A stretch of DNA of 64,000 nt from an uncultured archaeon (GCA_964537835.1 CAZICS010000001.1:54275-118274), one strand, 5' to 3'. Positions 39,501-64,000 are shown, counted from the stretch's first letter. The notes: a model not told the origin generated them from the letters alone. Translations and numbers: made by a program.

Positions 39501-42500
39501 TTGATTGGGCTCTGTCAGTGCATGTATAGGTGTAAGTAAGGTTTACGGTACATGGTGAGGATTGAGAACAGCTAGAAAGCCAGTTTGTTTGATTTGCTAA
39601 GATCCATGTTGTCGAACCATAGGGTCTATGCCATAAGTAAACTTTTATACTATCTCCCTGTTTATCATAAACTTGGACATTAAAACTTCTCCTCACACCC
39701 CAACTATCAGATTGAGGAACTGCATGAGGACTAATAAAATGAGGTCTTGTATCTTTTCCACACCAAGTATAGTTTATTTTATACGATGCCATTCCACCTC
39801 CATTTCCAGATGATTGGAGATGTATAGTAAATGGAAAATCACTCTCAGTGTAAGTTCCTGATGGTACATCACATGCACCAGGATAAGTTCCTGTATCACA
39901 TGCACTACCTCCACAAGATGTTGCTAATCTATTTGTTCCACCGCTGACACAAGTATAAGCTTCACATTCCTGTCCATTATCAACATTCCTACACCATGGA
40001 TATCTTGTGGTAGAACCATCAGAAAAGCTAACGTAATGGATACCTCCAGTAGCACCACTTTGTGAGCTAATTGATGCCCAGGCATGAATCCATATTTCGT
40101 TTATATAACAATTTATAGTATCTTCTCTACACCTACCCTCAGGAGTGAAGTAATAATCGTTTCCACTACCAGTCGCTGCATGTCCAGATAGTGGTTCTTC
40201 GAACCATAAGCAATATTCATCGCTTGCTGGAGGGTCCGTAAGTAGAAGCCATCTTCTTGCTTCTTCATAAATCCTACTATCGTAAACAATTCTTGCTCTA
40301 ATCTCGTAAAGATAAGGATATTTCACTGGTGTCTTAAAAGTATACTGAACAGAGCTTCCATTAGATAAGTTCCAAGAAATTACTTTGCTATTAGAGGTTT
40401 CGTCTAAAATACCGGACGTATTTAAAATTTCAAAATCTGTTGGCAAAATTTCTTGCAAAGTAAAGTTAGAAATATTCTCGAAGGAAACAACTTTCATGCT
40501 GGAGAAGAAAGGAGGTAGTAATGGGTCTATTCTTATGGGTGTAGCTCTTATGAATTGGAAGCTTATGTTCTTTTCTACAACAAAATTAGAATAAATGTAG
40601 CTGTTTGTGTCCTTTCCTTTAACAACAGCAAATAAGGAGTAATTACCAACTTCCAATGTTTCATTGAAGAAAGCATAATAAGTTCCTACCTTCCCTTCTT
40701 TTATGCTTCCATCTTTTGTTGAAAGGTAGTAATGTTTTCCCGAGGGAGATTCTATAGTTAGTTTTATATCAGCTCCTGAAACTGGCTTTCCTTCATCATC
40801 GACAACAGCAAATAAAAGCTTAACACTTTCACCTGGATAATATCTATCCCTTTCCGAGTTAACAACAATGAGCCCCTGCTTAATTATAATATCTCTTTCA
40901 TGAATACCGTTGGTCAAATGTATCTTGTAGGGACTTAATCTAAAAGATCCTCTTAGATCTAACTTTACTCTGTAAACTCCTGGTTTAATTTCATCTACTT
41001 CTAGGAATTCCAGTGATAATTCTTCTTCCCTCCATTCTAGACATTCATTACTTTTCTTGAGAAAATCTTTGAAAATAGCAAATAAACTAGAGCTTAAAGG
41101 TAGAGGATTTGTTGCATTAAGTTTCTCTGGAGAAAATGCTATTTTTATTCCTCTTTCATCACTTTCTACATAAAATTCTGGATTTGGGACATAACAATTT
41201 AAAACCCATCCGAATTCTTCACTCTCCATCCAAGTGCAAGCGTAGGTTGAAATTACATGAGTTACAGAGGAAAGAGATGGTATGATCCATTCTAAAGTAT
41301 CAGGAATTTCGTCTTCATCCGTATCCAAAAGCGTATAGTTAAGGCTATAGTTAAACAAGCTTACTTCAAGGTCGAAGTCTTCTATTCCTTCTGGGATTTT
41401 AGTCCTTACTCTTATATTCGTATAATGCAAGGGGGCAGAGACATTTACTATTTTCTTCCAACCACTGTCAAAAATTATCTCTTCTTCCTTAATAGGGGCT
41501 GGGGTTGAATAGCTTACGATATATTCCTTGAAGCTTTCTGAAGGGATACGGGTTATGAGGAAGTAAGTTGAATTTAACCTAACTATTGGAGTTTCATTTT
41601 TTTCTATAGTAATATTAAAAGCCAATGGAGTAATGTTGAAGGTAGCGTTATATTCTTCCATATAAGAAGGTGTTGTGACTCTTACTATTTTCCTCCATCT
41701 TACTGGAACACCTACTATGGCTTCATCCTGTATTTCTTCTGTGTTTATTTTCACATCCTCGCAGATAACAAGAATTTTGATTAATTCTTCAAGCTTAGCT
41801 CTATAACCCTGAGCAAGGATCGAAATTTCTCCTAAACCACAAGCTTGAGCTGAAAAATTCAGTTTAACTTCCTTGCTTTCATCGGGAGAAGTAAACTCTA
41901 AAGGAAAGCTCGAATTTTCAAAAACTTGCTCGTCAACCTGAGCATTTAAAAACTCAAAACCTGTATAATTTATTGTAAGATTAATGAATGCTAGCGTACT
42001 CTTTAAAGTAAAATTGACAGAAAATTCTTGACTTAGGTTTAGTTTTTTGGGATAGGATAAGTTTTCTATGAAAATTAGCGGCTTAACTATTTTGAATGAT
42101 TTATTAGGCATAGAAACATTAAAGTTACCAAAAATGTCTCCTGCAAATGTTCTTCTCCACGTATAATTTCCTTCTAGTTGGGATGAAAAAATTGCCACAT
42201 ATTTTTCTCCAATCTTGTTTGTGGTTAGGTTAAATGTTTCGTTCGGTGATTCGACTTCAAACAATACCTGTTTAACTTTTATGTTATCCTCTACTCTTGC
42301 TGAAAGGTTAAGGGTTTCACCTATGTAAAGAAAATCTGTGCTTAATTCCTCATCATAGATTAAAGGAGCTTGCTTATCAGTTACGTTTACCGTTAAATTA
42401 AAAGCAGTAAAATTCTCAATAGAGTCTGCCTTTCCAAGAACTAGATAGGTGCCATTTTCAGCGAATAAAGCTTGAATTTCTAATAAAAAGGTTTTGTTAA

Positions 42501-52252: not shown

Positions 52253-54262
52253 ATGGAATTGGTTTTAGCTAAGGATTTAAAATCTAAATCCTATATCCTA
52301 ACAGGAAAAAATTCATTCTTCTACCGATTCTGCGATACCGGGTTTAAAAATAAGTGGTGTGGTTTTTGGTTTGACGGAATTAAATTTTTAGACTATTTTG
52401 CTTTTAAACTAAATGATGAGTGGCTTTCCCCAGCTAATTGTAAGAGTTTTGAATATAATGAAATTTCTGCTTCCCATAATTTTTGCTTGGCTGATTTGGA
52501 CGCAAAGGAATTTTTATACTTATCTGAAACCACAGGCTCTTTAATTTGTGTTATTACTGTTAAAAACAATTCCTCAGAAAGAAGAAAAATCGATTTGTTT
52601 TTAGAAATGGGAGTAAACATTAAAGATTGGAATGAAAACTGGCATGAGAGAAGTTATTCAACCAAATGCTTGGAGAATAAGTTTGTCATAAATTCAGAGA
52701 AAGGTTCGATGGCTTTTGGTAGCTTTCCTTTTGGTTGCTTAGACTCTAAAGAAGAATATAAAGAGCATTATCCAGGTGGAGAAAAGCAAAGAATTTTTAT
52801 TCCTGGTATTTACAAGATTAGCTTTTATCTTGGCCCAGAATCGAGTCAAGAGGCTTTTTTCATCTTAGCCCCTGGGGCTAATGAACTTAATGCTTTAAAA
52901 AATTTTGAGAATGAGATAAATTCTTTTTCTTTTAGTTATTTAGAAAAAGAAAAAAAGTTGGCTAAAATTAAGAACATGGCAAGATTCGAATCTAACTTAG
53001 ATTTTCTTGATAAGCTTTTTGAATCTAGTGTAATAAGCTTGGAGAAGCTTGCCTTTAATTCAAGCTTCGGTTTTGGTTATTTTGCAGGCTATCCTTGGTT
53101 TTTACAATTTTGGGGAAGGGATTTAGCCTGGGTTTTACCAGCTATAATAGATTATGGAAATTTTGAGGCCGCAAAAAATGCTTTAAGAACACTTTTTAAA
53201 TTTCAGTCAAAGGACGGACAAATTCCTAATATAATTTTTTTGAATGGTGAAACAAGATATAACTCGGCTGATTCTACCCCTCTTACACTTATCGCTCTTT
53301 ATCATTATGTAATGAATTCAGGGGATGTTCTATTTTTAAACGAAATCGAAAGGAATTTGGAAAAAGTATTTGATTTCTATAGGAGTAAAAAAGATAAGAA
53401 TGGTTTTGTTAATAGTGAAGAAAAAGAAACTTGGATGGATAGCTTAGAGAGGAGAGGAAAAGTTTTAGAGATTCAAGCCTTTTGGATTCATGCTTTAAAA
53501 TGTGGAGCAAAGCTCCTTGAAATTTTGGGAAAAGATCCTAAGAAGATAAAGGAAGAGGCTTTAAAGCTAGAAAAAAATTTTGAAAAAGAATTTTGGAATG
53601 AGAAGGATAAATTTTATTTTGATAGAATTTTGAATGGAAAAAAATTCAAAGAAAAAACTGCGAATGTAATTTTCCCTCTATTCTTTGGGATTTCAAGAAA
53701 TTATGGTGAATCAATTAAAAGAATAGAAAGCGATGAATTCACTTCAAAGTTTGGTATAAGAACTATTTCAAAAAATGAAAATATTTATAATCCTGCAGGC
53801 TATCATACTGGTTCAAGCTGGGCATGGTTAATTGCTTTGTTTGCAGGAATAGAATTTAAATACGGGAATGTTAAGAAAGGACTAAATTATTTGAGAATTT
53901 TATTTAAGAGATTGAATAAAAACTGTATCTCTGCAATAGATGAAGCATGGAACTCAGAAAATGGAAGTTCTATGCTTCTAAAAGGAAATAAGCTGGAGGA
54001 AGGAGCTTGTTTGCAAGCATGGAGCTCTTTAGCTATTAGAGCTATAGATGAGTGCATGCTTGGAATTAAAGTTAATGCTTTGGAAAATAAGCTTATAGTT
54101 TCTCCCTGCTTGCTAGATGGAATGAAAATTAAAAGAAGGAAGAAAATAGGAGATGATTGGGTCAATTTAACCTTTAAAAGGAAGGGAAGAAAAGTTGAAA
54201 TAAAATATGAAAGCGAGCATAAAAAGGAGTATAAACTTATTAGAGCTCCTTTACTCAGTTAG
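52253..54262 (+). CDS. Glycogen debranching enzyme (amylo-alpha-1,6-glucosidase, GDE_C family).
   Basis: GYFAGYPWFLQFWGRDLAWVLPAII contains the hallmark WFGRD-type motif of archaeal and bacterial GDE. The 669-aa size fits. Confidence 0.7.
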   Translation: MELVLAKDLKSKSYILTGKNSFFYRFCDTGFKNKWCGFWFDGIKFLDYFAFKLNDEWLSPANCKSFEYNEISASHNFCLADLDAKEFLYLSETTGSLICVITVKNNSSERRKIDLFLEMGVNIKDWNENWHERSYSTKCLENKFVINSEKGSMAFGSFPFGCLDSKEEYKEHYPGGEKQRIFIPGIYKISFYLGPESSQEAFFILAPGANELNALKNFENEINSFSFSYLEKEKKLAKIKNMARFESNLDFLDKLFESSVISLEKLAFNSSFGFGYFAGYPWFLQFWGRDLAWVLPAIIDYGNFEAAKNALRTLFKFQSKDGQIPNIIFLNGETRYNSADSTPLTLIALYHYVMNSGDVLFLNEIERNLEKVFDFYRSKKDKNGFVNSEEKETWMDSLERRGKVLEIQAFWIHALKCGAKLLEILGKDPKKIKEEALKLEKNFEKEFWNEKDKFYFDRILNGKKFKEKTANVIFPLFFGISRNYGESIKRIESDEFTSKFGIRTISKNENIYNPAGYHTGSSWAWLIALFAGIEFKYGNVKKGLNYLRILFKRLNKNCISAIDEAWNSENGSSMLLKGNKLEEGACLQAWSSLAIRAIDECMLGIKVNALENKLIVSPCLLDGMKIKRRKKIGDDWVNLTFKRKGRKVEIKYESEHKKEYKLIRAPLLS

Positions 54263-54496
54263 TTTATAAAGCAACCCTTTTTTATCTTTGATTATTTCTA
54301 TTTTCCCTTCTCTTCCTAACCATCCTAAGGCTCCAAAGACTTCATTCAGTTTAAGCTTAGCTTGCTTGGCTATTGCGCTTGCCGATAAAGCTCCTTTTTC
54401 CTTTAGAACATGCCAGACTTTTCCTGCGTTTACCCCAAAGATTTCTTCTGGTTTCATACTATCAAATTTATTCTCCTGTAAAATAAATTTTTTCAT
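54251..54496 (-). CDS. Small winged-helix protein (81 aa).
   Basis: VWHVLKEKGALSASAIAKQAKLKLNEVFGALGWLGREGKIEI is wHTH-like. It overlaps the ends of both neighbours, so the call is less certain. Confidence 0.4.
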   Translation of the reverse strand: MKKFILQENKFDSMKPEEIFGVNAGKVWHVLKEKGALSASAIAKQAKLKLNEVFGALGWLGREGKIEIIKDKKGLLYKLTE

Positions 54497-55226
54497 ACTT
54501 TTCTGGATCCTCTAACATATCTTTCAGCTTTTCAGGATTTTTTTCTAGAAGATTCAACGGATTTAATTTCTTTTTGATCTTTTTTATAAGCTTATATTCA
54601 CCTCCCTTATACCTCTCATTTTTTCTAATCTCAAACTTATCTTTCTTTTTGTCATAGAATAAATGAAAAGGGAATCCTTTTCCTTTAACAGCAAGATAGT
54701 TATGCCCAGCTTTTTCTGGAGCAAATGTTATAAAAAGACAATCTTTTTTAAAACTTGTAGTTCTATGTAAAAATCTGGGATGAATATAGACAAAATCACC
54801 TTCTCTAAGTTCAATGATAAAAGTTTCGTAAGTTTTTTTATCGGAAAGTATGAGGAAGCATTTATTCTTTAGAACATAATGTGCTTCCCCTACTTCAGCC
54901 TCATGAGCATGTCCATAGGTTGAAAAAAGTTCACCTTTATTTGAAAGTGAAAATATACCATGGTTAAGAATAGTGACATCTGAAACTATTTTGGTTTTTT
55001 CATAGAGTTTCTTGAATTTTTCTACAGCTTTCCAAAGTTGGTAGAGTTCATAGACGATAAAATCTCCACAAGCTTCAACCATTTTTTTAGCATTTTCTAA
55101 ATCAAGTATAACTCTGTCTTTTATTAATTCAGAAGCATATCTTTTCCAGTTTGGAATTTCTTTCTTGAAATCGAAGAATAAACCATCTTTTATTTGCTTG
55201 AAATCAAATCCAAAGTTTATTTTCAT
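54468..55226 (-). CDS. pgiA: Cupin-type glucose-6-phosphate isomerase (cPGI) with an N-terminal extension.
   Basis: TYGHAHEAEVGEAHYVL parallels TKGHFHAKLDRAEVYVAL, DFVYIHPRFLHRTTS parallels VVYVPPYWAHRTVN, and PEKAGHNY parallels PADAGHDYG of Pyrococcus furiosus cPGI. These are the metal-ligand His/Glu motifs TxGHxH...ExY...H. Confidence 0.8.
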   Translation of the reverse strand: MKINFGFDFKQIKDGLFFDFKKEIPNWKRYASELIKDRVILDLENAKKMVEACGDFIVYELYQLWKAVEKFKKLYEKTKIVSDVTILNHGIFSLSNKGELFSTYGHAHEAEVGEAHYVLKNKCFLILSDKKTYETFIIELREGDFVYIHPRFLHRTTSFKKDCLFITFAPEKAGHNYLAVKGKGFPFHLFYDKKKDKFEIRKNERYKGGEYKLIKKIKKKLNPLNLLEKNPEKLKDMLEDPEKYEKIYFTGE

Positions 55227-55258
55227 ATTTAAATTTTGTTTTTCGGAAAATTAAAAAT

Positions 55259-56533
55259 ATGAAAGCTTTTTATGTTCCTTGGCTTCACATGCACCAGCCA
55301 TTAATCTGGCTTGATAATAAGCTGGTAAGCAACTTGGAAAAAATGCTTTTATCTAAAGATTCAAAAGAGGTTTGGGACGCAAAATTAATGGCAAGAGCTT
55401 ACAAAAATCCTGCTAAGTATGTAAAAAAGCTTAGGGAAGAAGGTTATCAAGCAAAAATTATGCTTGATTATTCTGGAGTTTTGCTTGAAAGTTTGGCTGA
55501 CTTAGCAAAAAGGAAAGTTTTGGATATAGAAGTTGAGGGAGAGAAGGTTGGAGATATAATAAAATTTTTTAAAGAAGTTTTGGAAAAATTTCCAGATTCT
55601 ATAGAGTTTGTTGCAACAGCCTATTCTCATTGCTATTTTCCCGCAACTCCTGAGCAAGATTGGAAGATGCAAATAGAAGAGTGGAAGCAGGTTTTTAAAA
55701 AATTATTTGGGAAGAAAGCTTTGGAGAGAGTAAAAGGATTTTGGCTGCCAGAACTTGGAGTTCCAGGGTTTGAAGATAAGCTCGAGAAATTGATAAAAGT
55801 TTTAAATGAGGAAGAAATAGAATGGCTTTTCCTACCTTTACAAGCTGTTGAGAATTATGAGAAGCTTAGCTATGAGGAACGAATAAGAATAGCTTGCATG
55901 CCTCATTTGCTTAAAATAAAAGATCAATCAATTCCAGTAATTTTTAGAACACCTTCCTATTTCATAGACCAGCAAGCTGGTTGCTTAGCTGGAGAAGTAT
56001 GCAAAAAAGTTAAGGAAGCAATTCAAATCTTTTCAAAATTTAACAAACCTGCTTTGATAGTTCCTGCCAGCGATGGGGAAAACGGGAATGTGATGATGAA
56101 TGAATTCTTTCCTTTAACTTTTGAGCCTTTATTCAAAAATTATGTTGGAAGAGAATTTGGTTCCTTAACAATTTCTGAATTTCTACACGAGTTTTATGAA
56201 AAGAGGGGAGAAATCAGGCCAGAAAGTGAAATCAAGCTTAAGACTCTAGGAGCTTCATGGATAGATGGACATGAACTTTGGCTAAAGGGTTCAAGAAGAT
56301 TAGAGATGGTTAAAAAAGTTTATGAGTTGAGCAAGAGATTTCACGAGCTTGAAAGAAAAATCTTGGAAAAGGTTGGAGAAATAGAAGAATTGAAAGAAGT
56401 TAGAAGGCTTTTACTAATTTCTGAGACTTCATGCTATGTTTATTGGAATATTGAGTTCTGGTTTAAACAAGGAGAAAAAACTATAGAGCTTGCAAACAAA
56501 AAAATTTCTGAATTAGAGAAGAAATATTTATAA
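55259..56533 (+). CDS. GH57-like glycoside hydrolase or transferase (second paralog).
   Basis: WLHMHQP parallels HNHQP, LDYSGVLLE parallels VHFSGPLLEW, FVATAYSHCYFPATPEQD parallels VVAGFYEPVLAAIPKED, and VKGFWLPELGV parallels AKGVWLTERVW (nucleophile Glu). Confidence 0.6.
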   Translation: MKAFYVPWLHMHQPLIWLDNKLVSNLEKMLLSKDSKEVWDAKLMARAYKNPAKYVKKLREEGYQAKIMLDYSGVLLESLADLAKRKVLDIEVEGEKVGDIIKFFKEVLEKFPDSIEFVATAYSHCYFPATPEQDWKMQIEEWKQVFKKLFGKKALERVKGFWLPELGVPGFEDKLEKLIKVLNEEEIEWLFLPLQAVENYEKLSYEERIRIACMPHLLKIKDQSIPVIFRTPSYFIDQQAGCLAGEVCKKVKEAIQIFSKFNKPALIVPASDGENGNVMMNEFFPLTFEPLFKNYVGREFGSLTISEFLHEFYEKRGEIRPESEIKLKTLGASWIDGHELWLKGSRRLEMVKKVYELSKRFHELERKILEKVGEIEELKEVRRLLLISETSCYVYWNIEFWFKQGEKTIELANKKISELEKKYL

Positions 56534-56568
56534 GAAAAATCAAAATTAATTTTTAATTAGGTTTTAGA

Positions 56569-57741
56569 ATGAGGATAGCTTTATTTTCTTGGGAATCCTT
56601 GCATTCTTTGCCTGTTGGTGGGTTAGCTGTTCATGTAACTGAGCTGGCTGCTGCTTTAGAAAGAAAAGGAAATGAGGTTCATGTTTTTACGAGGATTGGG
56701 CCAAACCAAAAGATCTATGAGGTTATAGATGGCGTGCATTATCATCGCTGTCCTTTTGCTTTTAATTCCAACTTCATCTATGAAATGACCAATAACATGT
56801 GTAAATCAATGGCCCATTTCTTTTTTGAAACTGAAAATGTAGCAGGTCATTTTGATATAATTCATGGTCATGATTGGCATGTTGTGAATGCTTTGGATGA
56901 AATAAAAAGAGCGAGGAATAAAAAAGTGATTTTTACTTTACATTCAACCCAGTACGGAAGAGATGGTAATCATTTTCATGATGGAGCAGCTCAAGATATA
57001 AGAAATATAGAATGGTTCGGGACTTATGTAGCTGATAGGGTTATAGTTTGTTCTAATGCGATGAAAAATGAGGTTATGCGAATCTATAGAGTTCCTGATT
57101 GGAAGATGAGAGTCATACCAAATGGAGTTTGGGCAAGGAATTTTGATGGATTTATTGATGCATGGAAAGATGTAAAACAATACTTTGGATTTGCTCCTCT
57201 TGATCCGATGATAGTTTATGTAGGTAGGATGACCGTTCAAAAAGGACCTGATTTATTGATAGAGGCTATTCCAGATGTTCTAAAAGATTTTCCTAATGCA
57301 AAATTTGTTTTTGTGGGCGATGGCTACATGAAACCACAGCTTGAGAAAAGGGTAGGCGAGCTAAATTTATGGCATGCAGTTAGATTTACTGGTTATATCC
57401 CAAATGACTGGAAAACCAAGATTATGAAGGCAGCTGAATGCATAGTTGTACCTAGCAGGAATGAGCCATTTGGAATAGTTGTTTTAGAAGGTTGGAGCTG
57501 CTATAAGCCTGTAATAGCAACTCATGGAACAGGAGCTGGCGAACTAATTTGGCACGATGTGACTGGCTTGAGAGTTTATCAAGCTCCTAATTCTATAGCC
57601 TGGGGCATAAAAGAAATTTTGAGAAATCCGGAGAAAGCAAAATGGATGGGAAAGAATGGAAGGAATGCTGCAGAAAAAGTTTTCAACTGGGATAGGATAG
57701 CCGAACAAACTTTGAAAGTTTATGAGGAAGTTTTGGGTTAA
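56569..57741 (+). CDS. glgA: Archaeal glycogen synthase (GT-B glycosyltransferase).
   Basis: MRIALFSWESLHSLPVGGLAVHVTELAAALERKGNEVHVFTR parallels the Pyrococcus GS MKVLLLGFEFLPVKVGGLAEALTAISEALASLGHEVLVFTP. C-terminal VVPSRNEPFGIVVLEG matches IIPSYFEPFGLVALEA. Confidence 0.8.
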   Translation: MRIALFSWESLHSLPVGGLAVHVTELAAALERKGNEVHVFTRIGPNQKIYEVIDGVHYHRCPFAFNSNFIYEMTNNMCKSMAHFFFETENVAGHFDIIHGHDWHVVNALDEIKRARNKKVIFTLHSTQYGRDGNHFHDGAAQDIRNIEWFGTYVADRVIVCSNAMKNEVMRIYRVPDWKMRVIPNGVWARNFDGFIDAWKDVKQYFGFAPLDPMIVYVGRMTVQKGPDLLIEAIPDVLKDFPNAKFVFVGDGYMKPQLEKRVGELNLWHAVRFTGYIPNDWKTKIMKAAECIVVPSRNEPFGIVVLEGWSCYKPVIATHGTGAGELIWHDVTGLRVYQAPNSIAWGIKEILRNPEKAKWMGKNGRNAAEKVFNWDRIAEQTLKVYEEVLG

Positions 57742-57773: not shown

Positions 57774-57995
57774 ATGAAATGCTGGTTTTGTGAGAAGGAG
57801 GCAAGAGGAATTTGTATAGTTTGCGGAAGAGCGGTTTGTCATGAACATGGCTATAAGCTTGACCAATTCACTCATGCAAAAAGTGATACAAGCACAGGTT
57901 TTGCAAGCTACTTCAAAGCTTTTAATGTTCTAAAGTGTAAAGAGTGTAAGATAGAGTGGGAAACTTGGGAGCAAGGGAAGCGAATAGTTAAATAG
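57774..57995 (+). CDS. Zinc-ribbon protein (CxxC ... CxxC x2).
   Basis: 73 aa carrying CWFC...CIVCGRAVCHEH...CKECK. Confidence 0.5.
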   Translation: MKCWFCEKEARGICIVCGRAVCHEHGYKLDQFTHAKSDTSTGFASYFKAFNVLKCKECKIEWETWEQGKRIVK

Positions 57996-58653
57996 CTTTG
58001 GCCTTGATTACCAAGTAGTGAGGATAATAGTTTTCCTCTAAGCTAGAAGAACCTAGTTCCTTAATCTCTTCAATCTTAAATTCTTGAGAAATTATAGTAT
58101 TCAGATAATCTTCTAAGGTCCAGTGGTAGTTAAAATATCTAATATTTCCGTTTATTTTCAGAAACTTGCCTCTCTTGAAGTAATTTTTTGTATGTCTCAC
58201 CATTCTCTCTATAGGATGAGGGACTACTACTAAAAGTTCTCCATCTTTCTTTAAAATTCTTCTGAATTCTTTTAAAACAGCTTTCAAGTTTTTCTTATAC
58301 ATAAGAGAAAAAACCGAAAGGACTAGGTCAAAACTTTCCCTTTCGAATCCTGTCCTTTCCATATCTCTGAGGAAAAATTTTACTCCTAGATTTTTACATC
58401 TCTTTCTAGCTAATTTAATCATAAATTCGCTGACATCTATTCCAACAACTTTTGCGCCTCTCTTTGCTAGCAATTCACATTCTTTTCCCGTGCCACAGCC
58501 AGCATCCAAAATTTTCTTTTCTCTCGAATCATTAATCACAGAAATGATTATTTGTGAAATCTTTTTTCTGTCAGGATTTTTCTCTTCTTTCTTAACAAAA
58601 AATTTTCCATAGGTATTGTAAATTTTTCTCGCTTCTTTTGCATCTTCATCCAT
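57988..58653 (-). CDS. Class I SAM-dependent methyltransferase.
   Basis: Motif I ILDAGCGTGKECELLAKRGAKVVGIDVSEFMI (GxGxG) and motif II-like DLVLSVFSLMY. Confidence 0.75.
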   Translation of the reverse strand: MDEDAKEARKIYNTYGKFFVKKEEKNPDRKKISQIIISVINDSREKKILDAGCGTGKECELLAKRGAKVVGIDVSEFMIKLARKRCKNLGVKFFLRDMERTGFERESFDLVLSVFSLMYKKNLKAVLKEFRRILKKDGELLVVVPHPIERMVRHTKNYFKRGKFLKINGNIRYFNYHWTLEDYLNTIISQEFKIEEIKELGSSSLEENYYPHYLVIKAKAI

Positions 58654-58750: not shown

Positions 58751-59560
58751 ATGAATAGAGAAGAGATAGAAGAAATGTTAAAGAATTTTGGCTTGAGTGA
58801 GTATGAAGCAAAAGCTTACTATGCCCTTTTACTGCTTGGACATTCAAAAGCTAGCGAAATATGCAAGCTTGCAAGAATTCCTCAATCAAAGATTTATGAA
58901 GTTTTGGATAGGTTAGCTGAAAAAAATTTGGTTGAAGTTTATGAAGTAAGGCCAAAAGAGTTTAAACCAATTTCCCCTCAAGTTGTATTGAGAAATTTTT
59001 TAGAAGCTCAAGAAAGAAAGATTAAGGAAATGAAGGAGAAAATCGAGGAGCTTGTCACTTCTTTAAACTCGAGAGGAACTAAAGTTTTCGAGGGAATTTG
59101 GGCTTCTAGGGAAAGAGGATGGAAGGTTTTCATGAATAAGGCTACTGAAATGTTCGAGCATGCTGAGAACTATGTTTTTGTTATGAGTAAGTACTTTTCT
59201 TGGTCTTCAAGGCTAGCAAAAGCAGTGAAAGCTTGCATTAAAAGAGGAGTTGAAATTAAAACCATAGCTTCCAAAGGTATAGACGAGACAAATTACTATA
59301 GAGCTAAGTGGTACCATGACAATGGAGTTAAGATAAGAGTTTTAAGATCTGGCAAATACCCTAGCTTAATAGACGTAGATGGAAAAGAGGTTTTGCTAAG
59401 GCTGGATAAAAATTCTAGTAGAAGAAACCCAGTTTTTACTTCAATCTGGTCGAAGGATGAAGGTTTTACCAGGATAATCGATACTTTTGTTAAGCACATA
59501 TGGAGGAATTCGAGGCCAGTCGATTTCGAGAAGTTGAAGAAGTTAGTCGAGAAAGCTTAA
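58751..59560 (+). CDS. trmB: TrmB-family sugar-responsive transcriptional regulator.
   Basis: N-terminus LKNFGLSEYEAKAYYALLLLGHSKASEICKLARIPQSKIYEVLDRLAEKNLVEV parallels TrmB LSEIGFTKYEILTYWTLLVYGPSTAKEISTKSGIPYNRVYDTISSLKLRGFV. The 269-aa size includes a C-terminal sensor domain. Confidence 0.75.
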   Translation: MNREEIEEMLKNFGLSEYEAKAYYALLLLGHSKASEICKLARIPQSKIYEVLDRLAEKNLVEVYEVRPKEFKPISPQVVLRNFLEAQERKIKEMKEKIEELVTSLNSRGTKVFEGIWASRERGWKVFMNKATEMFEHAENYVFVMSKYFSWSSRLAKAVKACIKRGVEIKTIASKGIDETNYYRAKWYHDNGVKIRVLRSGKYPSLIDVDGKEVLLRLDKNSSRRNPVFTSIWSKDEGFTRIIDTFVKHIWRNSRPVDFEKLKKLVEKA

Positions 59561-59590: not shown

Positions 59591-61192
59591 TCAGCTAGAA
59601 AGATACCTATCTAAGAATTTTGTAAAAGCGTAAATGCTAAGGGTACCAGCTGCCAACCAAATAACATTCCTTAGCGTTTTATCATTTTCGATTCTAATGA
59701 AATTTCTCAGCCTATAGTTTCTTGAGTTGAATGAACGATTTTCTAATCTTCTAATTTGATTTAACTGATTCCTATATTCCTTTAAAAGTCTATCTATCTC
59801 ATTCAACCTTTTCCTATAATTTTGAATGTTTTGATTAATCTCATCCACCATAGCTTGCAATCTCCTTTCTCGGGCTACTTGCGGAGAAACTTCCTCTAAT
59901 CTTTTCTTCTTAACAAATCGCTTCGGAGGAATAGTTATCCCTCTTCTTAAGTAATTGTTCCTCAAAAAATCAAGATACCACTTAATTCCTTTTGGCTTAT
60001 GAAGGTCGACTTGCTGAGCAACATAAAGGTAAGCTAAGGGATAAACTTGAAATTCTGGTAAATAATAAGGAGCAGAAAGTTTTTCTCCTGTGTAAAAGCC
60101 AATCCCTCTTTCCAAATACTCTAATTTCCTTAGCTTAGCCCCGAACTTAACCAAACTCTTAAGAGAATTCTCTAGGCCAGCGAATTCTTTTGGAACATTT
60201 TCTATGCAAGCGTTTTCTATCGAAAGGTAAGAGGCTATTCCTTCTTCCAAAATCTTGAAGGGCAACGATTTAGAAATATAGCTAAAGCATGATTCATAAA
60301 GTTTGCTCAACGGAATTTTCGAAATGTCTGAAATTTCTATTCCATGCCTTCTAACGATTTCCCAAAAAACAAAAGGATTCGTTAGATCTTTCCCTCTTAC
60401 GTCAATTCCTTTTTGCTCAAGTTTTTCCCTCAATTTTTTATCTATTGAACCAAAGAGAATTCCCCTATCTCGAAAAATCCTGAAAATCGGTAAGTCTTTG
60501 AACGATTCGTCAAAAGCTTTGGAAACAGCTAGGGAAAAAGCATCCGAGTTGTACAAGTTTGAAACGTGGTGAAGAATTTCATGAGTAGGTGTGGTTATTC
60601 CGCTAGAAAGAGACCTAAAAACCGAGGGCTTAAGCCCGATTTCCACTTTCAATTTATTCTCCAAATAATACTCGTCTAAAACTTTTCCTGCGTTCTTTTC
60701 TATCCCAGAAATCCAAGGAGTAAGCTTGTATCCCACTTTACCTTTTCCTATCGGAGACAAATCGAGCTCCAATTCTTTTTCTTCCTCGTTCCTCAAATAG
60801 CTCTTAATCCCCATTTTTCTAAGGCTAGAAGAAATTATAGAATAAATTAGTTCGCTTTCAAAAGGCTGGTCAACAAATTCTCCGAATAGCATTTCGGCAA
60901 AAGTATTGGAAAGGTTTTGAAGCTTGTACCTGAATTTAAAGTAAGCATCTTTCTCTCCTTCTTCCAAATCTTTTTTACGCTCTAGGAGCCAGTTTAAATC
61001 GTTCAAAGTCCCTTCTTGACCTGAGCTAAAAAGAAACTCAGGATGGAGCTCATCCTTAAGCTCATACAAGCTTTCTACCAATTCCTTTTTTGTTTCCCTC
61101 AACTCTATTTCATAGAGGTTTGGTAAAACTTTAAACTCCTCCTTATCTTTTCTTGGAATGAACTTTAAGATTTCTTTAAAAAGTTCAGGCAT
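59591..61192 (-). CDS. Hypothetical 533-aa protein with a C-terminal hydrophobic helix and an Arg/Asn/Gln-rich coiled-coil tail; last gene of the Mrr-AAA operon.
   Basis: Long ORF on the same strand that overlaps the upstream gene by 8 nt (translational coupling). No recognised motif. Confidence 0.55.
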   Translation of the reverse strand: MPELFKEILKFIPRKDKEEFKVLPNLYEIELRETKKELVESLYELKDELHPEFLFSSGQEGTLNDLNWLLERKKDLEEGEKDAYFKFRYKLQNLSNTFAEMLFGEFVDQPFESELIYSIISSSLRKMGIKSYLRNEEEKELELDLSPIGKGKVGYKLTPWISGIEKNAGKVLDEYYLENKLKVEIGLKPSVFRSLSSGITTPTHEILHHVSNLYNSDAFSLAVSKAFDESFKDLPIFRIFRDRGILFGSIDKKLREKLEQKGIDVRGKDLTNPFVFWEIVRRHGIEISDISKIPLSKLYESCFSYISKSLPFKILEEGIASYLSIENACIENVPKEFAGLENSLKSLVKFGAKLRKLEYLERGIGFYTGEKLSAPYYLPEFQVYPLAYLYVAQQVDLHKPKGIKWYLDFLRNNYLRRGITIPPKRFVKKKRLEEVSPQVARERRLQAMVDEINQNIQNYRKRLNEIDRLLKEYRNQLNQIRRLENRSFNSRNYRLRNFIRIENDKTLRNVIWLAAGTLSIYAFTKFLDRYLSS

Positions 61193-61751
61193 AGACTACC
61201 ACTTTCTTCTTCTTTCTCTTCTTTTTCTTGATCAACGGTTTTTCCAGCTTTTTCTCTTTCTTCGGCAAGTAAGACTTGAGTTTCTTGAGCATAGGTTCTC
61301 TTAAAGGTTGAGGAAGCGTTTCAAGTATATCTTTAAGCAAATAGAGTAATTTCTCGAAATCCGTCGATTTCATGCTTTCTTCCAAAAGTTTTTTGAGTTC
61401 TTCCGAGCTTTCATAAGCTAGAGAAAAGATTAACCTATCGATCGGGCTTATTCTACCGACTGCATAGCCTCTTATCTCTGGATAATTGGATAGAAGATTA
61501 AGCAAGGTAGCTTTTTCAACAGCATTTAGCTTGTTTATTCTTTCCAATTCTTCTTTAAGAATAGAAAGGTCTAGAGCTCCCTTGTAAAGCAATTCATTCC
61601 TAAGATAGATTGAAACTTCTTTTTTAAGCTTATCTAAATAAAGTGATAAAGGGTTCATGCAAGAGTAAGGAGAGAGCATGAAATATATGCCGCTATCGTC
61701 TATCCTTTTTCTTAAAGTATAGTATTCAGAATCAGAAACTTTTAGTTTCAT
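61185..61751 (-). CDS. Hypothetical 188-aa protein with a poly-Lys C-terminus (KKKKRKKKKVVVYA).
   Basis: ORF within the operon that overlaps the downstream gene by 8 nt. Confidence 0.5.
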   Translation of the reverse strand: MKLKVSDSEYYTLRKRIDDSGIYFMLSPYSCMNPLSLYLDKLKKEVSIYLRNELLYKGALDLSILKEELERINKLNAVEKATLLNLLSNYPEIRGYAVGRISPIDRLIFSLAYESSEELKKLLEESMKSTDFEKLLYLLKDILETLPQPLREPMLKKLKSYLPKKEKKLEKPLIKKKKRKKKKVVVYA

Positions 61752-61814
61752 GTTTGATTATGGAAAGAATTTTTTATAAATCAGTTTAGGACAACCAAGG
61801 TAGTGAGTAATTAA

Positions 61815-62213
61815 TTACTTGCTTTTCTTTCTCTTATGATACCTAATCAGGGTTTTTGCCAAATAATCACAAAAATCGACTAGGAAAAATATACTCGAAG
61901 ATATCTTGATCGTTCGCATAAGCGAGGAGTTTTCAGAATCTTCGATTTCTCTAACCAAATCTTCTAAATGATTTATCTTCCCTTTAATACTAGGAGCTTC
62001 TGACTTATCCAGTGTCATTATACTTTTTGCAATTTGCTTAAATTCTTTTAGATATTTTTTCTTTCCGCTTTTCCATTCTGTATAGGATACGGAAAAGTAT
62101 TCAGCATCATCTAATTTGCTAGAATAATATTCACGAATTTCCCATAGTTTTTTCAATAAACCGACAGAGTTTGCATTTTTCATCTTTTTGGAAGGATAGA
62201 TGTATGCTACCAT
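61815..62213 (-). CDS. Hypothetical 132-aa protein.
   Basis: ORF 17 nt downstream of the Mrr-AAA gene on the same strand. Confidence 0.45.
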   Translation of the reverse strand: MVAYIYPSKKMKNANSVGLLKKLWEIREYYSSKLDDAEYFSVSYTEWKSGKKKYLKEFKQIAKSIMTLDKSEAPSIKGKINHLEDLVREIEDSENSSLMRTIKISSSIFFLVDFCDYLAKTLIRYHKRKKSK

Positions 62214-62230
62214 GGTTCAAAATAAAATCT

Positions 62231-63727
62231 TTAAATTTTAATTTTTAATCCTGTTTCTTCAATTTCCTTAAGCAATTCTTCTTCCCCATACCTCTTACAA
62301 GCTCTTATAGCTTCGGCAAACCATGCTTGGGTAGATGGCTTTTGCTTTTCTAGAATTTTTTCAAAATCCTTTTGGGTTAATTTTCTTTTTCTCCCTCTAA
62401 TCAAATCCAATAAATTCTTTTTCTTCGATTTTTCAACTAGTAATTTCAAATCAGCACCGCTCCATCCTTCAGTCCTTTCAGCAATCCTTTCTATCAAATC
62501 ATCAACGCTCTCTACCATTTGCGTAGCAATCAAATCTCTCATATGAATCCTTAAAATCTCTTTTCTGGCCTCGTAGTCTGGAGGAGGGACGAATATTCTT
62601 TCATCAAACCTCCCAGGCCTCCTTATAGCTGGGTCTAAAAGCCAGGGTTTGTTGGTAGCTCCTAACAGAGAAAATTTTCTTTCAGAGTTTATACCATCCA
62701 ACTGTTGCAAAAACTCATTCTTTATTCTCTCATCATAAGAAGAGCCCCCTCTTTTCATGTAAACATCCAGTTCATCGAGAAAAATTATACAATTATCCTC
62801 TTTTTCCCTTGCATAATCAAAAATCGATGAAATTACTCTAAGAGAATTTGCTGAATAGCGTTTAATTAGGTCGCTAACCCTTGGTGCTATAAACTTGCTT
62901 TTTGCTTCATTAGCTACTGCCTTAGCAAGCAAAGTTTTTCCACATCCAGGGGGACCATACAAAAGGATATTCCCGGGTTTTATGTCAAACTTTTCGTACA
63001 AACTTTTATAGAGAGTAGGATAAACTATGGAAATTCTCAACTCATTCTTAACTTCTTCCAACCCTCCTATATCTGAAAAGCTTATGCTCGGCCTTTCGCT
63101 AACTAATAATTTTTCGATTGGATTTTCTTTTTGTCGAGGTTTTAGTTCTGTATGCTGCTCTTCAAACTTTTTGTTTAAAGCCTGATAGAATTCCGAGTAT
63201 GGGTTTAAATCTAAGTACAGAATTCGATTTTGCGGCTTTGGCAATAAAATCTTGCTTAAGGTTTTTGAGTTATCTATTCGATCTAAGGCAAATTTTGCTA
63301 ACGGAAGAACTACATTATTCATTAAATCGTTCCTGATTATAACCCTATCGAGCTGATATTTTTCCAATTCTTTTTTCAATTGCTTTCCATCTATGAGCTT
63401 GATGTTATAGGTTAAAGCAAGGCTTAGAATGTTGTCGGAAAAATAAGAATTGGTTATCAAATGTGCTTCAGGGATTCTGCAATCATCTACAGCAGTCAAA
63501 AATCGAGAAAAATCGTCTAACCTTACAGGAGAGCCATTTAGAGAATACTTTGCCTCGAAAACCAAAACTTTCTTCCTATATTTTCCTTTAACGCAATATC
63601 CGTCAAACTCATGCTTTGCCCCACTCCTTCCTACCAAAGTTTTATTCAATTCTACTCTGAACCCCTTCCTCGTGTACAATTCAGCGAGCAAGACTTCAAA
63701 CTGATGAGCATAGCTCATCCTTTTCAT
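62231..63727 (-). CDS. Mrr-cat (PD-(D/E)xK restriction-endonuclease-like) N-terminal domain fused to a classic AAA+ ATPase.
   Basis: N-terminus YAHQFEVLLAELYTRKGFRVELNKTLVGRSGAKHEFDGYCVKG...VLVFEAKYS matches the Mrr_cat D...(E/Q)xK pattern. AAA domain motifs: Walker A ILLYGPPGCGKTLLAK, Walker B CIIFLDELD, second region of homology GATNKPWLLDPAIRRPGRFDERIFV. Confidence 0.75.
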   Translation of the reverse strand: MKRMSYAHQFEVLLAELYTRKGFRVELNKTLVGRSGAKHEFDGYCVKGKYRKKVLVFEAKYSLNGSPVRLDDFSRFLTAVDDCRIPEAHLITNSYFSDNILSLALTYNIKLIDGKQLKKELEKYQLDRVIIRNDLMNNVVLPLAKFALDRIDNSKTLSKILLPKPQNRILYLDLNPYSEFYQALNKKFEEQHTELKPRQKENPIEKLLVSERPSISFSDIGGLEEVKNELRISIVYPTLYKSLYEKFDIKPGNILLYGPPGCGKTLLAKAVANEAKSKFIAPRVSDLIKRYSANSLRVISSIFDYAREKEDNCIIFLDELDVYMKRGGSSYDERIKNEFLQQLDGINSERKFSLLGATNKPWLLDPAIRRPGRFDERIFVPPPDYEARKEILRIHMRDLIATQMVESVDDLIERIAERTEGWSGADLKLLVEKSKKKNLLDLIRGRKRKLTQKDFEKILEKQKPSTQAWFAEAIRACKRYGEEELLKEIEETGLKIKI

Positions 63728-63858
63728 ACCTCCTCAAAAATCTTGAAAAATTTTCCAACTTTTCTCGAACAATTTCTCCGTAGAAATTTTTTAAATTATT
63801 AAAGCTTCCGACAGGATCGACTAAGAATAAGACTAAGTTTAAAAGATGAATTTTAAGT

Positions 63859-64000
63859 TCATACTTTTTCATTTCCCATCCTCCTTAAGATCTCCTCCAA
63901 CTTTTTAGCAAAACCTTCTCTCAGCCCTCTTTCTCTAGCCTTTTTATTTTTCTCAGCATAGACTTCCCCAGCAAGGACTGAAACAGCTCCTAAGCTTAAA
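63859..64000 (-). CDS. 3' end (C-terminal 47 aa) of an upstream minus-strand gene that runs off the window; function unknown.
   Basis: Frame open from the window edge: ...LSLGAVSVLAGEVYAEKNKKAREGLREGFAKKLEEILRRMGNEKV then stop (TGA, complement of 63859..63861). Confidence 0.35.
   Translation of the reverse strand, partial: LSLGAVSVLAGEVYAEKNKKARERGLREGFAKKLEEILRRMGNEKV

What the first reader, a model, noticed from the sequence alone, without database searches (positions are those of the whole stretch)
59591..63727. Four-gene minus-strand operon led by an Mrr-cat nuclease - AAA+ fusion, a candidate uncharacterised defence module
Seen: 62231..63727 encodes an N-terminal Mrr-type PD-(D/E)xK domain (HEFDGY...VLVFEAK) fused to a complete classic AAA ATPase (GPPGCGKT, DELD, SRH). 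Three co-directional, partly overlapping ORFs of unknown function follow it (132, 188 and 533 aa, the last with a C-terminal hydrophobic helix). Established knowledge: Mrr-like nuclease domains and ATPases are recurrent building blocks of anti-phage and anti-plasmid systems. Inference: this may be an ATP-dependent nuclease system with accessory or effector proteins, and I do not recognise it as a named system.
Basis: partly seen in the sequence, partly recalled or inferred. Interest (0 to 1): 0.6.

Follow-up and report, generated by a model that had tools for sequence, protein, structure and literature searches.

The report
Conserved archaeal Mrr-AAA gene cluster
The four genes are real, but they are the tail of a larger gene cluster that a small group of uncultured DPANN archaea (Aenigmatarchaeota) keep in the same chromosomal neighbourhood, so it looks like a lineage-specific cellular machine of unknown role (a nuclease, an optional protein-unfolding motor, a probable zinc protease, small membrane proteins) rather than a mobile anti-virus system.

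Summary
All four minus-strand ORFs exist as described. A (498 aa) is an Mrr-type PD-(D/E)xK domain with invariant catalytic residues, fused to one complete classic AAA module closest to Cdc48/VAT D2. A does not lead the operon. Two more overlapping co-directional ORFs lie upstream, and the last runs off the window end. In about 17 related loci, all Aenigmatarchaeota where named, five small genes (X1-X5, several membrane-embedded) always directly precede the Mrr gene. A TrmB regulator, a HAD-like/352-aa pair and the C-D pair always lie within about 12 kb, though their order and orientation change. In at least six lineages the Mrr domain stands alone without the AAA module. B occurs only in the closest relative. 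D is an orphan family with an invariant HExxH plus downstream EE, so it is probably a zincin metalloprotease. C is its constant partner and ends in a poly-Lys tail plus a hydrophobic-Tyr-Ala terminus, which resembles an HbYX motif. Only A matches PADLOC, Pfam, PHROGs or NCBIfam, and its PADLOC hits are generic AAA similarity. There are no relatives in viral contigs, phages or plasmids, and the flanks are housekeeping genes. The defence reading is not supported. The best reading is a vertically inherited, clade-specific, membrane-proximal nuclease/protease module of unknown role.

The parts
63859..64000 (-). 3' end (46 codons plus stop) of gene X5, a small protein with a C-terminal transmembrane helix. 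The gene runs off the window end. It is the fifth of five small genes that precede the Mrr gene in all relatives.
   Evidence: Sequence read. It is 85% identical to the C-terminus of L005 562-984, and matches L004 and L006 X5. A transmembrane segment is present in full-length X5 of L004, L005 and L006.
63696..63872 (-). s58, a 58-aa ORF overlapping both the end of X5 (14 nt) and the start of A (32 nt).
   Evidence: It is 88% identical to the called gene L005 971-1147 and has a weak match upstream of A in L010. Its relationship to the 65-83 aa ORFs that follow A in L004, L006 and L015 was judged by eye only.
62231..63727 (-). A: the Mrr-type nuclease domain, a linker, and a single classic AAA ATPase (498 aa).
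63371..63709 (-). Mrr_cat PD-(D/E)xK domain of A (aa 7-119). E11, D42, E58 and K60 are invariant.
   Evidence: Pfam, alignment A1/A2, the motif retained in all 15 loci, nearest PDB entry AF1548 1Y88 at E 8e-4, translation.
62360..62968 (-). AAA core (aa 254-381) and lid (aa 411-456) of A. It carries Walker A GPPGCGKT, Walker B FLDELD, the pore-loop K-R-Y, and the SRH IRRPGRFD.
   Evidence: The best PDB profile matches are VAT/p97 D2.
61815..62213 (-). B: a 132-aa fast-evolving ORF with the N-terminal motif MVAYIYPSKKMK and a C-terminal hydrophobic stretch. It is not conserved beyond the closest relative.
   Evidence: It is 56% identical to L005 2630-3040, while A, C and D are 94-97% identical. 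It is absent between A and C in L018 and L025. Motif recurrence is shown.
61185..61751 (-). C: a 188-aa orphan protein, always immediately upstream of D and overlapping it. It has an N-terminal beta domain, a helical bundle, a disordered poly-Lys tail and a C-terminal V-Y-A.
   Evidence: (A4).
59591..61192 (-). D: a 533-aa orphan protein, a probable zincin metalloprotease with a long C-terminal helix/coiled coil (437-489) and a terminal hydrophobic helix (506-532).
   Evidence: (A3).
60569..60583 (-). HEILH (aa 204-208) of D. The H-E-x-x-H motif is invariant in 13 homologues. The candidate third-ligand region L-E-E-G lies at aa 315-318.
58751..59560 (+). TrmB-family transcription regulator, convergent with D. 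It is a constant neighbour of the cluster in every long related contig.
57988..58653 (-). UbiE/Methyltransf_11-like methyltransferase. It neighbours TrmB in the window, L001, L012/L021, L013 and L024.

Best explanation
The finding is the distal part of a vertically inherited gene neighbourhood found only in a clade of Aenigmatarchaeota. It is not a mobile defence island.

The core has four parts.
(1) Five small genes, X1-X5. X1 and X2 are paralogous proteins with two Gly-rich helices. X3 and X5 are single-pass membrane proteins. X4 is a soluble helical protein.
(2) Directly after them, a catalytically intact Mrr-type PD-(D/E)xK nuclease. In roughly half of the lineages it carries a C-terminal Cdc48-D2-like AAA unfoldase.
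(3) The C-D pair. D is a probable zinc metalloprotease of a new family with a C-terminal coiled coil and a hydrophobic tail. C is its constant partner.
(4) A TrmB regulator and a HAD-like/352-aa pair.

Proposed mechanism (inferred, not shown):
- The X proteins form a membrane platform that holds the Mrr nuclease at the inner face of the membrane.
- Where present, the AAA ring threads protein clients through its aromatic pore loops.
- D, positioned by its tail and helped by C, cleaves protein clients.

Together these would form a membrane-proximal protein- and nucleic-acid-processing module, probably regulated by TrmB.

What is shown: gene content, conservation, motif integrity and synteny. What is inferred: physical association, membrane location of D, and substrates.
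For: - X1-X5 are always co-directional and abut the Mrr gene in L001-L006, L008, L010-L013, L017-L022, L024 and L025.
- TrmB, the P440/P352 pair and C-D all lie within about 12 kb in every contig long enough to show them. The three sub-operons change order and strand, so proximity survives rearrangement.
- The flanks are housekeeping genes: RNA polymerase subunits, polyprenyl synthase, PFOR, ScpB, GlmS and glycogen genes.
- GC content is uniform.
- The Mrr catalytic motifs are kept in all 15 versions, fused or not.
- Walker A, Walker B, the pore loop and the SRH of the AAA module are invariant.
- D has invariant P-x-H-E-x-x-H-(H) and E316-E317-G318. Its AF2 model (pLDDT 82, pTM 0.77) runs beta-sheet, then the HExxH helix, then a helical lobe. 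The top Foldseek hits are the gluzincins neurolysin and ACE, though weakly (E 0.04).
- X5 and X3 have transmembrane helices.
- No hits were found in PADLOC, PHROGs, viral contigs, plasmids or phages.
Against: - No interaction or expression data exist.
- The AAA module is dispensable in many lineages, so an 'unfoldase feeds protease' coupling cannot be the conserved core.
- C-D is 5-8 kb away on the other strand in L004, L014 and L015.
- D's terminal helix is only moderately hydrophobic, and it did not pass the transmembrane threshold used.
- The role of a cytosolic nuclease in such a module is unexplained.
- Conserved synteny could partly reflect slow rearrangement in small genomes.
- Presence in all genomes of the clade was not tested genome by genome.
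Confidence: 0.4

Rival explanations
1. It is a novel anti-virus or anti-plasmid defence system. The Mrr nuclease is the effector, the AAA ring senses or activates, and B, C and D are accessory or effector proteins.
For: - An intact nuclease plus an ATPase is a common defence pairing (established knowledge).
- PADLOC IetA-type models hit the AAA part.
- B evolves much faster than its neighbours: 56% identity against 94-97%.
- The AAA module has been lost or gained repeatedly, a modularity also seen in defence genes.
- The ATPase-plus-protease pairing resembles IetAS.
Against: - The IetA and IteA scores are generic: NCBIfam 105 bits against a cut-off of 510, below the PAN and CDC48 scores of about 210.
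- No other component hits PADLOC.
- The chromosomal position and housekeeping flanks are conserved across 40-97% identity.
- There is no compositional anomaly.
- There are no integrases, toxin-antitoxin, restriction-modification or CRISPR neighbours.
- Viral contigs, phages and plasmids hold no relatives.
Confidence: 0.12
2. It is a membrane-associated DNA or nucleotide acquisition or processing apparatus of a host-dependent DPANN cell. The X1-X5 membrane proteins and the always-retained Mrr nuclease would handle incoming or host-derived nucleic acid. The AAA module and the protease would be auxiliary.
For: - The nuclease with an intact active site is the one enzyme never lost, and it always follows the membrane-protein genes.
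- X1 and X2 are paralogous small proteins with two Gly-rich helices.
- Nucleoside and nucleotide salvage genes occur in the same neighbourhoods: IU nucleoside hydrolase and dCMP deaminase in L014 and L024, thymidylate kinase in L025.
- DPANN archaea commonly lack nucleotide biosynthesis (established knowledge).
Against: - The cluster has no DNA translocase (VirB4/HerA/FtsK type).
- Classic-clade AAA proteins act on polypeptides.
- The Mrr protein has no signal peptide or transmembrane helix.
- The salvage-gene neighbours are not constant.
- X1 and X2 show no Pfam similarity to pilins or to VirB2/TrbC.
Confidence: 0.15
3. There is no single machine. The three sub-operons are unrelated functions that remain neighbours by descent. 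A alone is a Cdc48-like segregase whose nuclease-fold domain targets it to DNA, for example to remove or process DNA-bound proteins.
For: - The sub-operons shuffle independently.
- The AAA part is closest to Cdc48/VAT D2.
- Streamlined genomes can keep long-range synteny.
Against: - Proximity is retained despite inversions and reordering in every long contig. This is the classical signature of functional linkage.
- The Mrr gene is always translationally tight with X5.
- In two separate clades C-D directly follows the Mrr gene.
Confidence: 0.2
4. It is an integrated virus, plasmid or other mobile element carrying a nuclease, an ATPase and membrane proteins.
For: The cluster holds many small orphan membrane proteins and an AAA ATPase. 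PHROG families of unknown function hit the AAA part.
Against: - There is no integrase, tRNA target or repeat.
- The flanking genes are the same in distant relatives.
- No relative occurs in 2.9 million viral contigs, in phage records or in plasmid records.
- GC content is uniform.
Confidence: 0.03

Closest known systems
Cdc48/p97/VAT (D2 AAA module) of the classic AAA clade
   Same: Both have Walker A and B, an aromatic pore loop, an SRH with arginines and a lid domain. The best PDB profile hits are VAT and p97 D2. NCBIfam CDC48 scores 208 bits, and the top phmmer hits after the orthologues are archaeal CDC48 proteins.
   Different: A has only one AAA domain and no double-psi-barrel N domain. 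It has no HbYX C-terminus and carries an Mrr nuclease domain in place of the N domain. The score is far below the family cut-off (208 against 803). PAN (210 bits) and CdvC (189 bits) score about equally, so no subfamily can be assigned.
Mrr-type (type IV) restriction endonuclease catalytic domain, PF04471; nearest structure AF1548 (PDB 1Y88)
   Same: The Pfam match is above the cut-off. The catalytic D...E-x-K and the upstream Glu are invariant.
   Different: There is no Mrr_N winged-helix DNA-recognition domain. The domain is about 130 aa, either at the N-terminus of an AAA protein or standing alone at about 165 aa. It is embedded in a conserved operon of membrane proteins rather than in a defence island.
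FtsH (membrane AAA plus M41 HExxH metalloprotease)
   Same: A classic AAA unfoldase and an HExxH protein with a hydrophobic anchor helix are encoded together, next to membrane proteins.
   Different: Here they are separate polypeptides. D has no detectable sequence relationship to M41 or to any Pfam peptidase. NCBIfam FtsH scores 165 bits against a cut-off of 600. The AAA part is missing in many lineages that keep D.
IetAS defence system (AAA ATPase IetA plus serine protease IetS)
   Same: Both have an ATPase-plus-protease gene content. PADLOC IetA models hit the AAA region (71e-36 to 6e-13).
   Different: The hit is generic AAA similarity: NCBIfam IteA scores 105 bits against a cut-off of 510. 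There is no subtilisin-like partner, the extra Mrr domain is present, and the context is conserved and housekeeping in type.
McrBC (AAA+ motor plus PD-(D/E)xK nuclease)
   Same: Both combine a hexameric NTPase with a PD-(D/E)xK nuclease.
   Different: From general knowledge, not tested here: McrB is a GTP-specific AAA+ protein of another clade with a DNA-binding N domain, and its nuclease is a separate subunit. No McrB or McrC model was among the matches.
HbYX-tailed proteasome interactors (PAN, archaeal Cdc48, PbaB; PMC3493965, PMC3605417, PMC11475706)
   Same: C ends in a flexible tail followed by hydrophobic-Tyr-X at the extreme C-terminus in 13 of 15 homologues.
   Different: C has no similarity to any of these proteins and no ATPase. 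Binding to a 20S alpha-ring is untested, and the tail is poly-Lys.

Membership tests
Mrr_cat PD-(D/E)xK nuclease domain (PF04471) | Profile match above the Pfam gathering score | tested here: met
   39.9 bits against a cut-off of 21, aa 7-119. Also annotated on the orthologues.
Mrr_cat PD-(D/E)xK nuclease domain (PF04471) | Catalytic acidic residues and Lys (E...D...E-x-K) present | tested here: met
   E11, D42, E58 and K60 are invariant in 11 orthologues. The motif is present in all 15 fused and stand-alone versions and aligns to AF1548.
Mrr type IV restriction enzyme (full architecture) | N-terminal winged-helix (Mrr_N) DNA-recognition domain upstream of the catalytic domain | tested here: not met
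   The catalytic domain starts at residue 7 and no Mrr_N hit was found.
Classic AAA ATPase (PF00004) | Walker A, Walker B, pore-loop aromatic residue, second region of homology with arginines, lid domain | tested here: met
   PF00004 at E 3e-35 and AAA_lid_3. GPPGCGKT, FLDELD, K-R-Y and IRRPGRFD are invariant or nearly so.
CDC48/VAT family (TIGR01243) | Two tandem AAA domains plus the N domain; score above the curated cut-off | tested here: not met
   208 bits against a cut-off of 803. A single AAA domain aligns to D2 only.
PAN proteasome-activating nucleotidase | Coiled-coil/OB N-terminus, C-terminal HbYX, score above the cut-off | tested here: not met
   210 bits against a cut-off of 500. 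The C-termini of the A orthologues are variable and not Hb-Y-X.
CdvC/Vps4 | N-terminal MIT domain, ESCRT-III partner genes, score above the cut-off | tested here: not met
   189 bits against a cut-off of 650. There is no MIT domain, and no Snf7 or CdvA hits among the neighbours.
IetAS (PADLOC / NCBIfam IteA_antiphage) | IetA equivalog score and an adjacent IetS serine protease | tested here: not met
   NCBIfam scores 105 bits against a cut-off of 510. No IetS-like neighbour was found.
Any catalogued defence system (PADLOC-DB 2.0) | System-specific hits on partner genes and location in a variable or defence island | tested here: not met
   B, C, D, X1-X5, P440 and P352 give no hits at or below 0.01, apart from one marginal 2TM match for B at 0.008. 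The flanks are conserved housekeeping genes.
Zincin (HExxH) metallopeptidase - protein D | Invariant H-E-x-x-H on a helix that follows a beta-sheet | tested here: met
   H204, E205 and H208 are invariant in 13 sequences. The AF2 model places the motif in helix 195-214, after strands 130-187.
Zincin (HExxH) metallopeptidase - protein D | Third zinc ligand and fold match to a known peptidase clan | tested here: inconclusive
HbYX-motif proteasome interactors - protein C | Hydrophobic-Tyr-any at the extreme C-terminus | tested here: met
   [V/I/A/L]-Y-A in 13 of 15 homologues; V-V-Y-A in the window.
HbYX-motif proteasome interactors - protein C | Binding to and gate opening of the 20S alpha-ring | not testable with these tools
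   This needs biochemistry or complex modelling. The presence of a 20S proteasome in these genomes was not checked.

The most novel reading that the evidence does not exclude
This may be a previously undescribed archaeal envelope machine. X1-X5 would form a membrane platform for an Mrr nuclease/Cdc48-like unfoldase, with a new zincin protease (D) and its HbYX-tailed adaptor (C). It would act on a set of mostly tail-anchored client proteins that share an N-terminal M-x-Y-x-Y-P-x-K-K tag. B is one of them, and 2-4 such genes sit beside the cluster in every related locus. This would amount to a new targeting or processing pathway in DPANN archaea, possibly linked to host interaction.
Probability: 0.12. 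Interest if true: 0.8.

Novelty: new variant of a known kind. Interest (0 to 1): 0.45.

Why it matters
If the cluster is one functional unit, it would be a DPANN-specific cellular machine built from two familiar engines (a PD-(D/E)xK nuclease and a Cdc48-like unfoldase) and about nine orphan families. One of those is a new candidate zinc-protease family found in only about a dozen sequences among billions. It would offer a way into the 'dark matter' of uncultured, host-dependent archaea.

It is also a useful cautionary case. 'Nuclease plus ATPase plus unknown genes' is not enough to call a defence system. Here comparative context points to a vertically inherited, fixed-position module, and the ATPase itself is optional.

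Tried and rejected
- Named defence systems. PADLOC was run on all four ORFs and on 10 neighbour proteins. Only generic AAA hits appeared.
- Virus or plasmid origin. PHROGs gave only AAA hits. A viral-contig scan found no relatives. tblastn against plasmids and phages gave no match.
- ESCRT/Cdv reading. I suspected a Vps4-like ATPase with ESCRT-III-like small partners. CdvC scores below PAN and CDC48, there are no Snf7, CdvA or MIT hits, and the ESCRT-diversity paper (PMC11188069) mentions no Mrr-fused form.
- BLAST relationship between D and the 352/440-aa neighbours: none.
- Bacterial-type promoter and terminator scan: at or below the shuffled expectation, and not informative for an archaeon.
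- Literature searches for an Mrr-AAA fusion in archaea or Aenigmarchaeota found nothing relevant.
- The first NJ tree picked up a spurious motif match inside the giant ORF. It was redone with the correct window sequence.

Full report
OBSERVATION

- A: 62231..63727, 498 aa
- B: 61815..62213, 132 aa
- C: 61185..61751, 188 aa
- D: 59591..61192, 533 aa

Spacing is tight. The A-B gap is 17 nt, the B-C gap is 63 nt, and C and D overlap by 8 nt. A TrmB-family gene converges on D 30 nt away.

A matches Pfam Mrr_cat (aa 7-119, 39.9 bits against a cut-off of 21), AAA (aa 254-381, E 3e-35) and AAA_lid_3. In an alignment of 11 full-length orthologues at 40-69% identity, the following are invariant or nearly so:
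- the nuclease residues E11, D42, E58 and K60;
- Walker A (GPPGCGKT) and Walker B (FLDELD);
- the pore-loop K-R-Y;
- the SRH (IRRPGRFD).

The AAA part is a classic-clade module. PDB profile hits are led by VAT/p97 D2. NCBIfam gives PAN 210, CDC48 208, CdvC 189 and FtsH 165 bits, all far below their cut-offs. It therefore belongs to no named subfamily.

The nearest solved relative of the nuclease domain is AF1548 (1Y88, E 8e-4), with the catalytic D and E-x-K aligned.

Upstream of A, a 58-aa ORF (63696..63872) overlaps A's start. It is itself overlapped by the end of another minus-strand gene that runs off the window at 64000.

The 97%-identical contig L005 and more distant relatives show what lies beyond. 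Five small co-directional genes, which I call X1-X5, abut the Mrr gene.
- X1 and X2 are paralogues with two Gly-rich helices.
- X3 (in L004) and X5 carry a clear transmembrane helix.
- X4 is a soluble helical protein with a conserved Y-K-P-L-A motif.
- None hits Pfam, PHROGs or PADLOC.

So A does not lead the operon. The window holds only its distal half.

COMPARATIVE CONTEXT

Homologues of A, C and D are few. There are 13, 15 and 13 clusters respectively among 5.8 billion proteins. D has only 9 representatives among 1.84 billion. Wherever a source names them, they are Aenigmatarchaeota (DPANN).

I assembled about 17 related loci and mapped all components by tblastn. Every contig long enough to show them carries these within about 12 kb:
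- X genes followed by Mrr, with or without AAA;
- a TrmB regulator;
- a pair of 411-479 aa and 338-353 aa proteins;
- the C-D pair.

The larger protein of that pair has a DxDxT/DxDGV motif (seen by eye in the translations). It also gives weak, sub-threshold HAD hits in L004, L012 and L025.

The order and strand of these blocks differ between lineages.
- Window, L005, L018, L025: X-A-(B)-C-D.
- L011-13, L021, L022: X-Mrr-C-D.
- L004, L014, L015: C-D lies 5-8 kb away on the other strand.
- L024: C-D converges directly on the Mrr gene.

The wider flanks are ordinary genes: RNA polymerase subunits, polyprenyl synthase, PFOR, ScpB, GlmS, and glycogen genes in the window. GC content does not differ from the surroundings. 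The family is absent from 2.9 million viral contigs and from the phage and plasmid collections.

Proximity that is kept through rearrangement, a fixed chromosomal neighbourhood and no mobile-element association together mark a vertically inherited, functionally linked module. This is not how a defence island behaves. [quoted passage not shown]

THE AAA MODULE IS OPTIONAL

In L011, L012/L021, L013/L022, L019, L020, L014 and L024 the Mrr domain is a stand-alone ORF of 156-196 aa. It ends in the linker region and has no AAA gene nearby.

A rough NJ tree of the nuclease domain nests these stand-alone forms among fused ones. This suggests repeated loss of the AAA module. All 15 versions keep the catalytic motif. 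The conserved partner of the X genes and of C-D is therefore the nuclease, not the ATPase. This weakens the description 'ATP-dependent nuclease system'.

B is not conserved. It occurs only in L005, at 56% identity, while A, C and D are 94-97% identical. It is absent between A and C in L018 and L025.

THE UNKNOWN PROTEINS

D. In the alignment of 13 homologues, P202-x-H204-E205-x-x-H208-(H209) and E316-E317-G318 are invariant. The AF2 model is good (pLDDT 81.7, pTM 0.77). It has an N-terminal helical region, a five-stranded sheet (130-187), the HExxH helix (195-214), a helical lobe, a 50-residue helix (437-489) and a terminal helix (506-532). This is the layout of a zincin or gluzincin. The top Foldseek PDB hits are the gluzincins neurolysin and ACE, but they are not significant (E 0.04-0.6). 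I call D a probable zinc metalloprotease of a new family, with confidence of about 0.6.

C. This protein has a six-stranded N-terminal domain, a helical bundle and a disordered poly-Lys tail (pLDDT 81). It has no structural or sequence relatives. Its extreme C-terminus is hydrophobic-Tyr-Ala in 13 of 15 homologues. That is the form of the HbYX motif used by archaeal proteasome interactors (PMC3493965, PMC3605417, PMC11475706). This is a lead, not a test.

MECHANISM

The best-supported reading has four steps.
- The X proteins form a membrane platform for the Mrr nuclease.
- Where present, the fused Cdc48-like ring translocates polypeptides. Its intact aromatic pore loops indicate this, and classic-clade AAA proteins act on proteins (established knowledge).
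- D is a tethered metalloprotease assisted by C.
- TrmB regulates the set.

The anatomy is shown. The physical coupling, the membrane location of D and the substrates are inferred.

The rivals are set out in their own section:
- a genuinely novel defence system (0.12);
- a membrane DNA/nucleotide-handling apparatus of a host-dependent cell (0.15);
- unrelated sub-operons that are merely syntenic (0.20);
- a mobile element (0.03).

COMPARISON WITH KNOWN SYSTEMS

By function it most resembles unfoldase-plus-zincin arrangements such as FtsH. At the level of parts it resembles Mrr/AF1548 nucleases and Cdc48 D2. It fails the membership tests for CDC48, PAN, CdvC, FtsH, IetAS and full-length Mrr enzymes. 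No published description of an Mrr-AAA fusion or of this cluster was found.

VERDICT

The defence interpretation is not supported. What is there is a clade-specific conserved module built from known engines plus about nine orphan families.

Interest is moderate at 0.45. There are several real curiosities: a new HExxH family, an optional AAA fusion, an HbYX-like adaptor and a recurrent N-terminal tag. However, there is no functional handle yet, and the organism is uncultured.

Noticed in passing
window 2458..45168 (-): A single 14,236-aa ORF fills two thirds of the window. Its first 4,500 aa carry Ig-like and adhesin-type domains (Big_1, MG2, Big_3_5, CarboxypepD_reg, DUF11), plus weak N-terminal HTH and intein-like hits. 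It is probably a giant DPANN surface protein. A 1,775+ aa protein with a faint MG2 hit (L014), and an unannotated 1,590-aa protein at the corresponding position in L024, lie near the related clusters.
   Followed up: partly
window 61815..62213 (-) (ORF B); L001 3190, 13761, 15323; L004 5222, 13869; L008 4697, 5040; L014 13304, 15060, 15501; L015 11793, 5463: A recurrent N-terminal motif, M-(x0-3)-Y-x-(Y/H/T)-P-x-K-K-K, heads 2-4 otherwise unrelated ORFs of 110-310 aa next to the cluster in every related locus. Many of them have C-terminal transmembrane helices. About 13 genuine N-termini were found among 2,877 start sites tested. It may be a shared targeting or processing tag. Genome-wide enrichment was not testable.
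   Followed up: partly
L011, L012/L021, L013/L022, L019, L020, L014, L024 (Mrr ORFs): The Mrr domain occurs as a stand-alone 156-196 aa protein in lineages nested among AAA-fused ones. This implies repeated loss of the AAA module, or less likely repeated gain.
   Followed up: yes
L004 10755-13122; L001 9531-11931; L015 13274-15568; L025 11961-14274; L012 873-3169: A constant gene pair accompanies the cluster. One member is a 395-479 aa protein with a HAD-type DxDxT/DxDGV motif and sub-threshold Pfam Hydrolase hits. The other is an orphan of 338-372 aa. In the window this pair must lie beyond coordinate 64000.
   Followed up: partly
L004 4257-5168; L006 1807-3481 and 7333-7572; L008 5040-5966; L010 3598-4044; L015 7852-8739: Proteins of about 300 aa of a GldG/IFT52 'GIFT'-like family (ABC_transp_aux and IFT52_GIFT hits in L004) recur near the cluster, sometimes in tandem.
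   Followed up: no
window 52253..57741 and 54468..55226: A glycogen or starch metabolism block lies just downstream of the cluster. By eye it includes a 669-aa amylo-alpha-1,6-glucosidase-like protein, a 424-aa GH57-like protein and a 390-aa glycogen-synthase-like glycosyltransferase. This fits a sugar-sensing role for the adjacent TrmB regulator. Functions were judged from the translations only.
   Followed up: no
window 57774..57995 (+): A 73-aa Cys-rich ORF (CxxC...CxxC...C..H, then CxxC) that looks like a small zinc-ribbon protein, lying between the glycosyltransferase and the methyltransferase.
   Followed up: no
window 61185..61220 (-) and alignment A4: C's tail (poly-Lys, then hydrophobic-Tyr-Ala at the extreme C-terminus) is conserved in 13 of 15 homologues, and also in L014 (VVYG) and L015 (ISYA). 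It resembles an HbYX proteasome-docking motif.
   Followed up: partly
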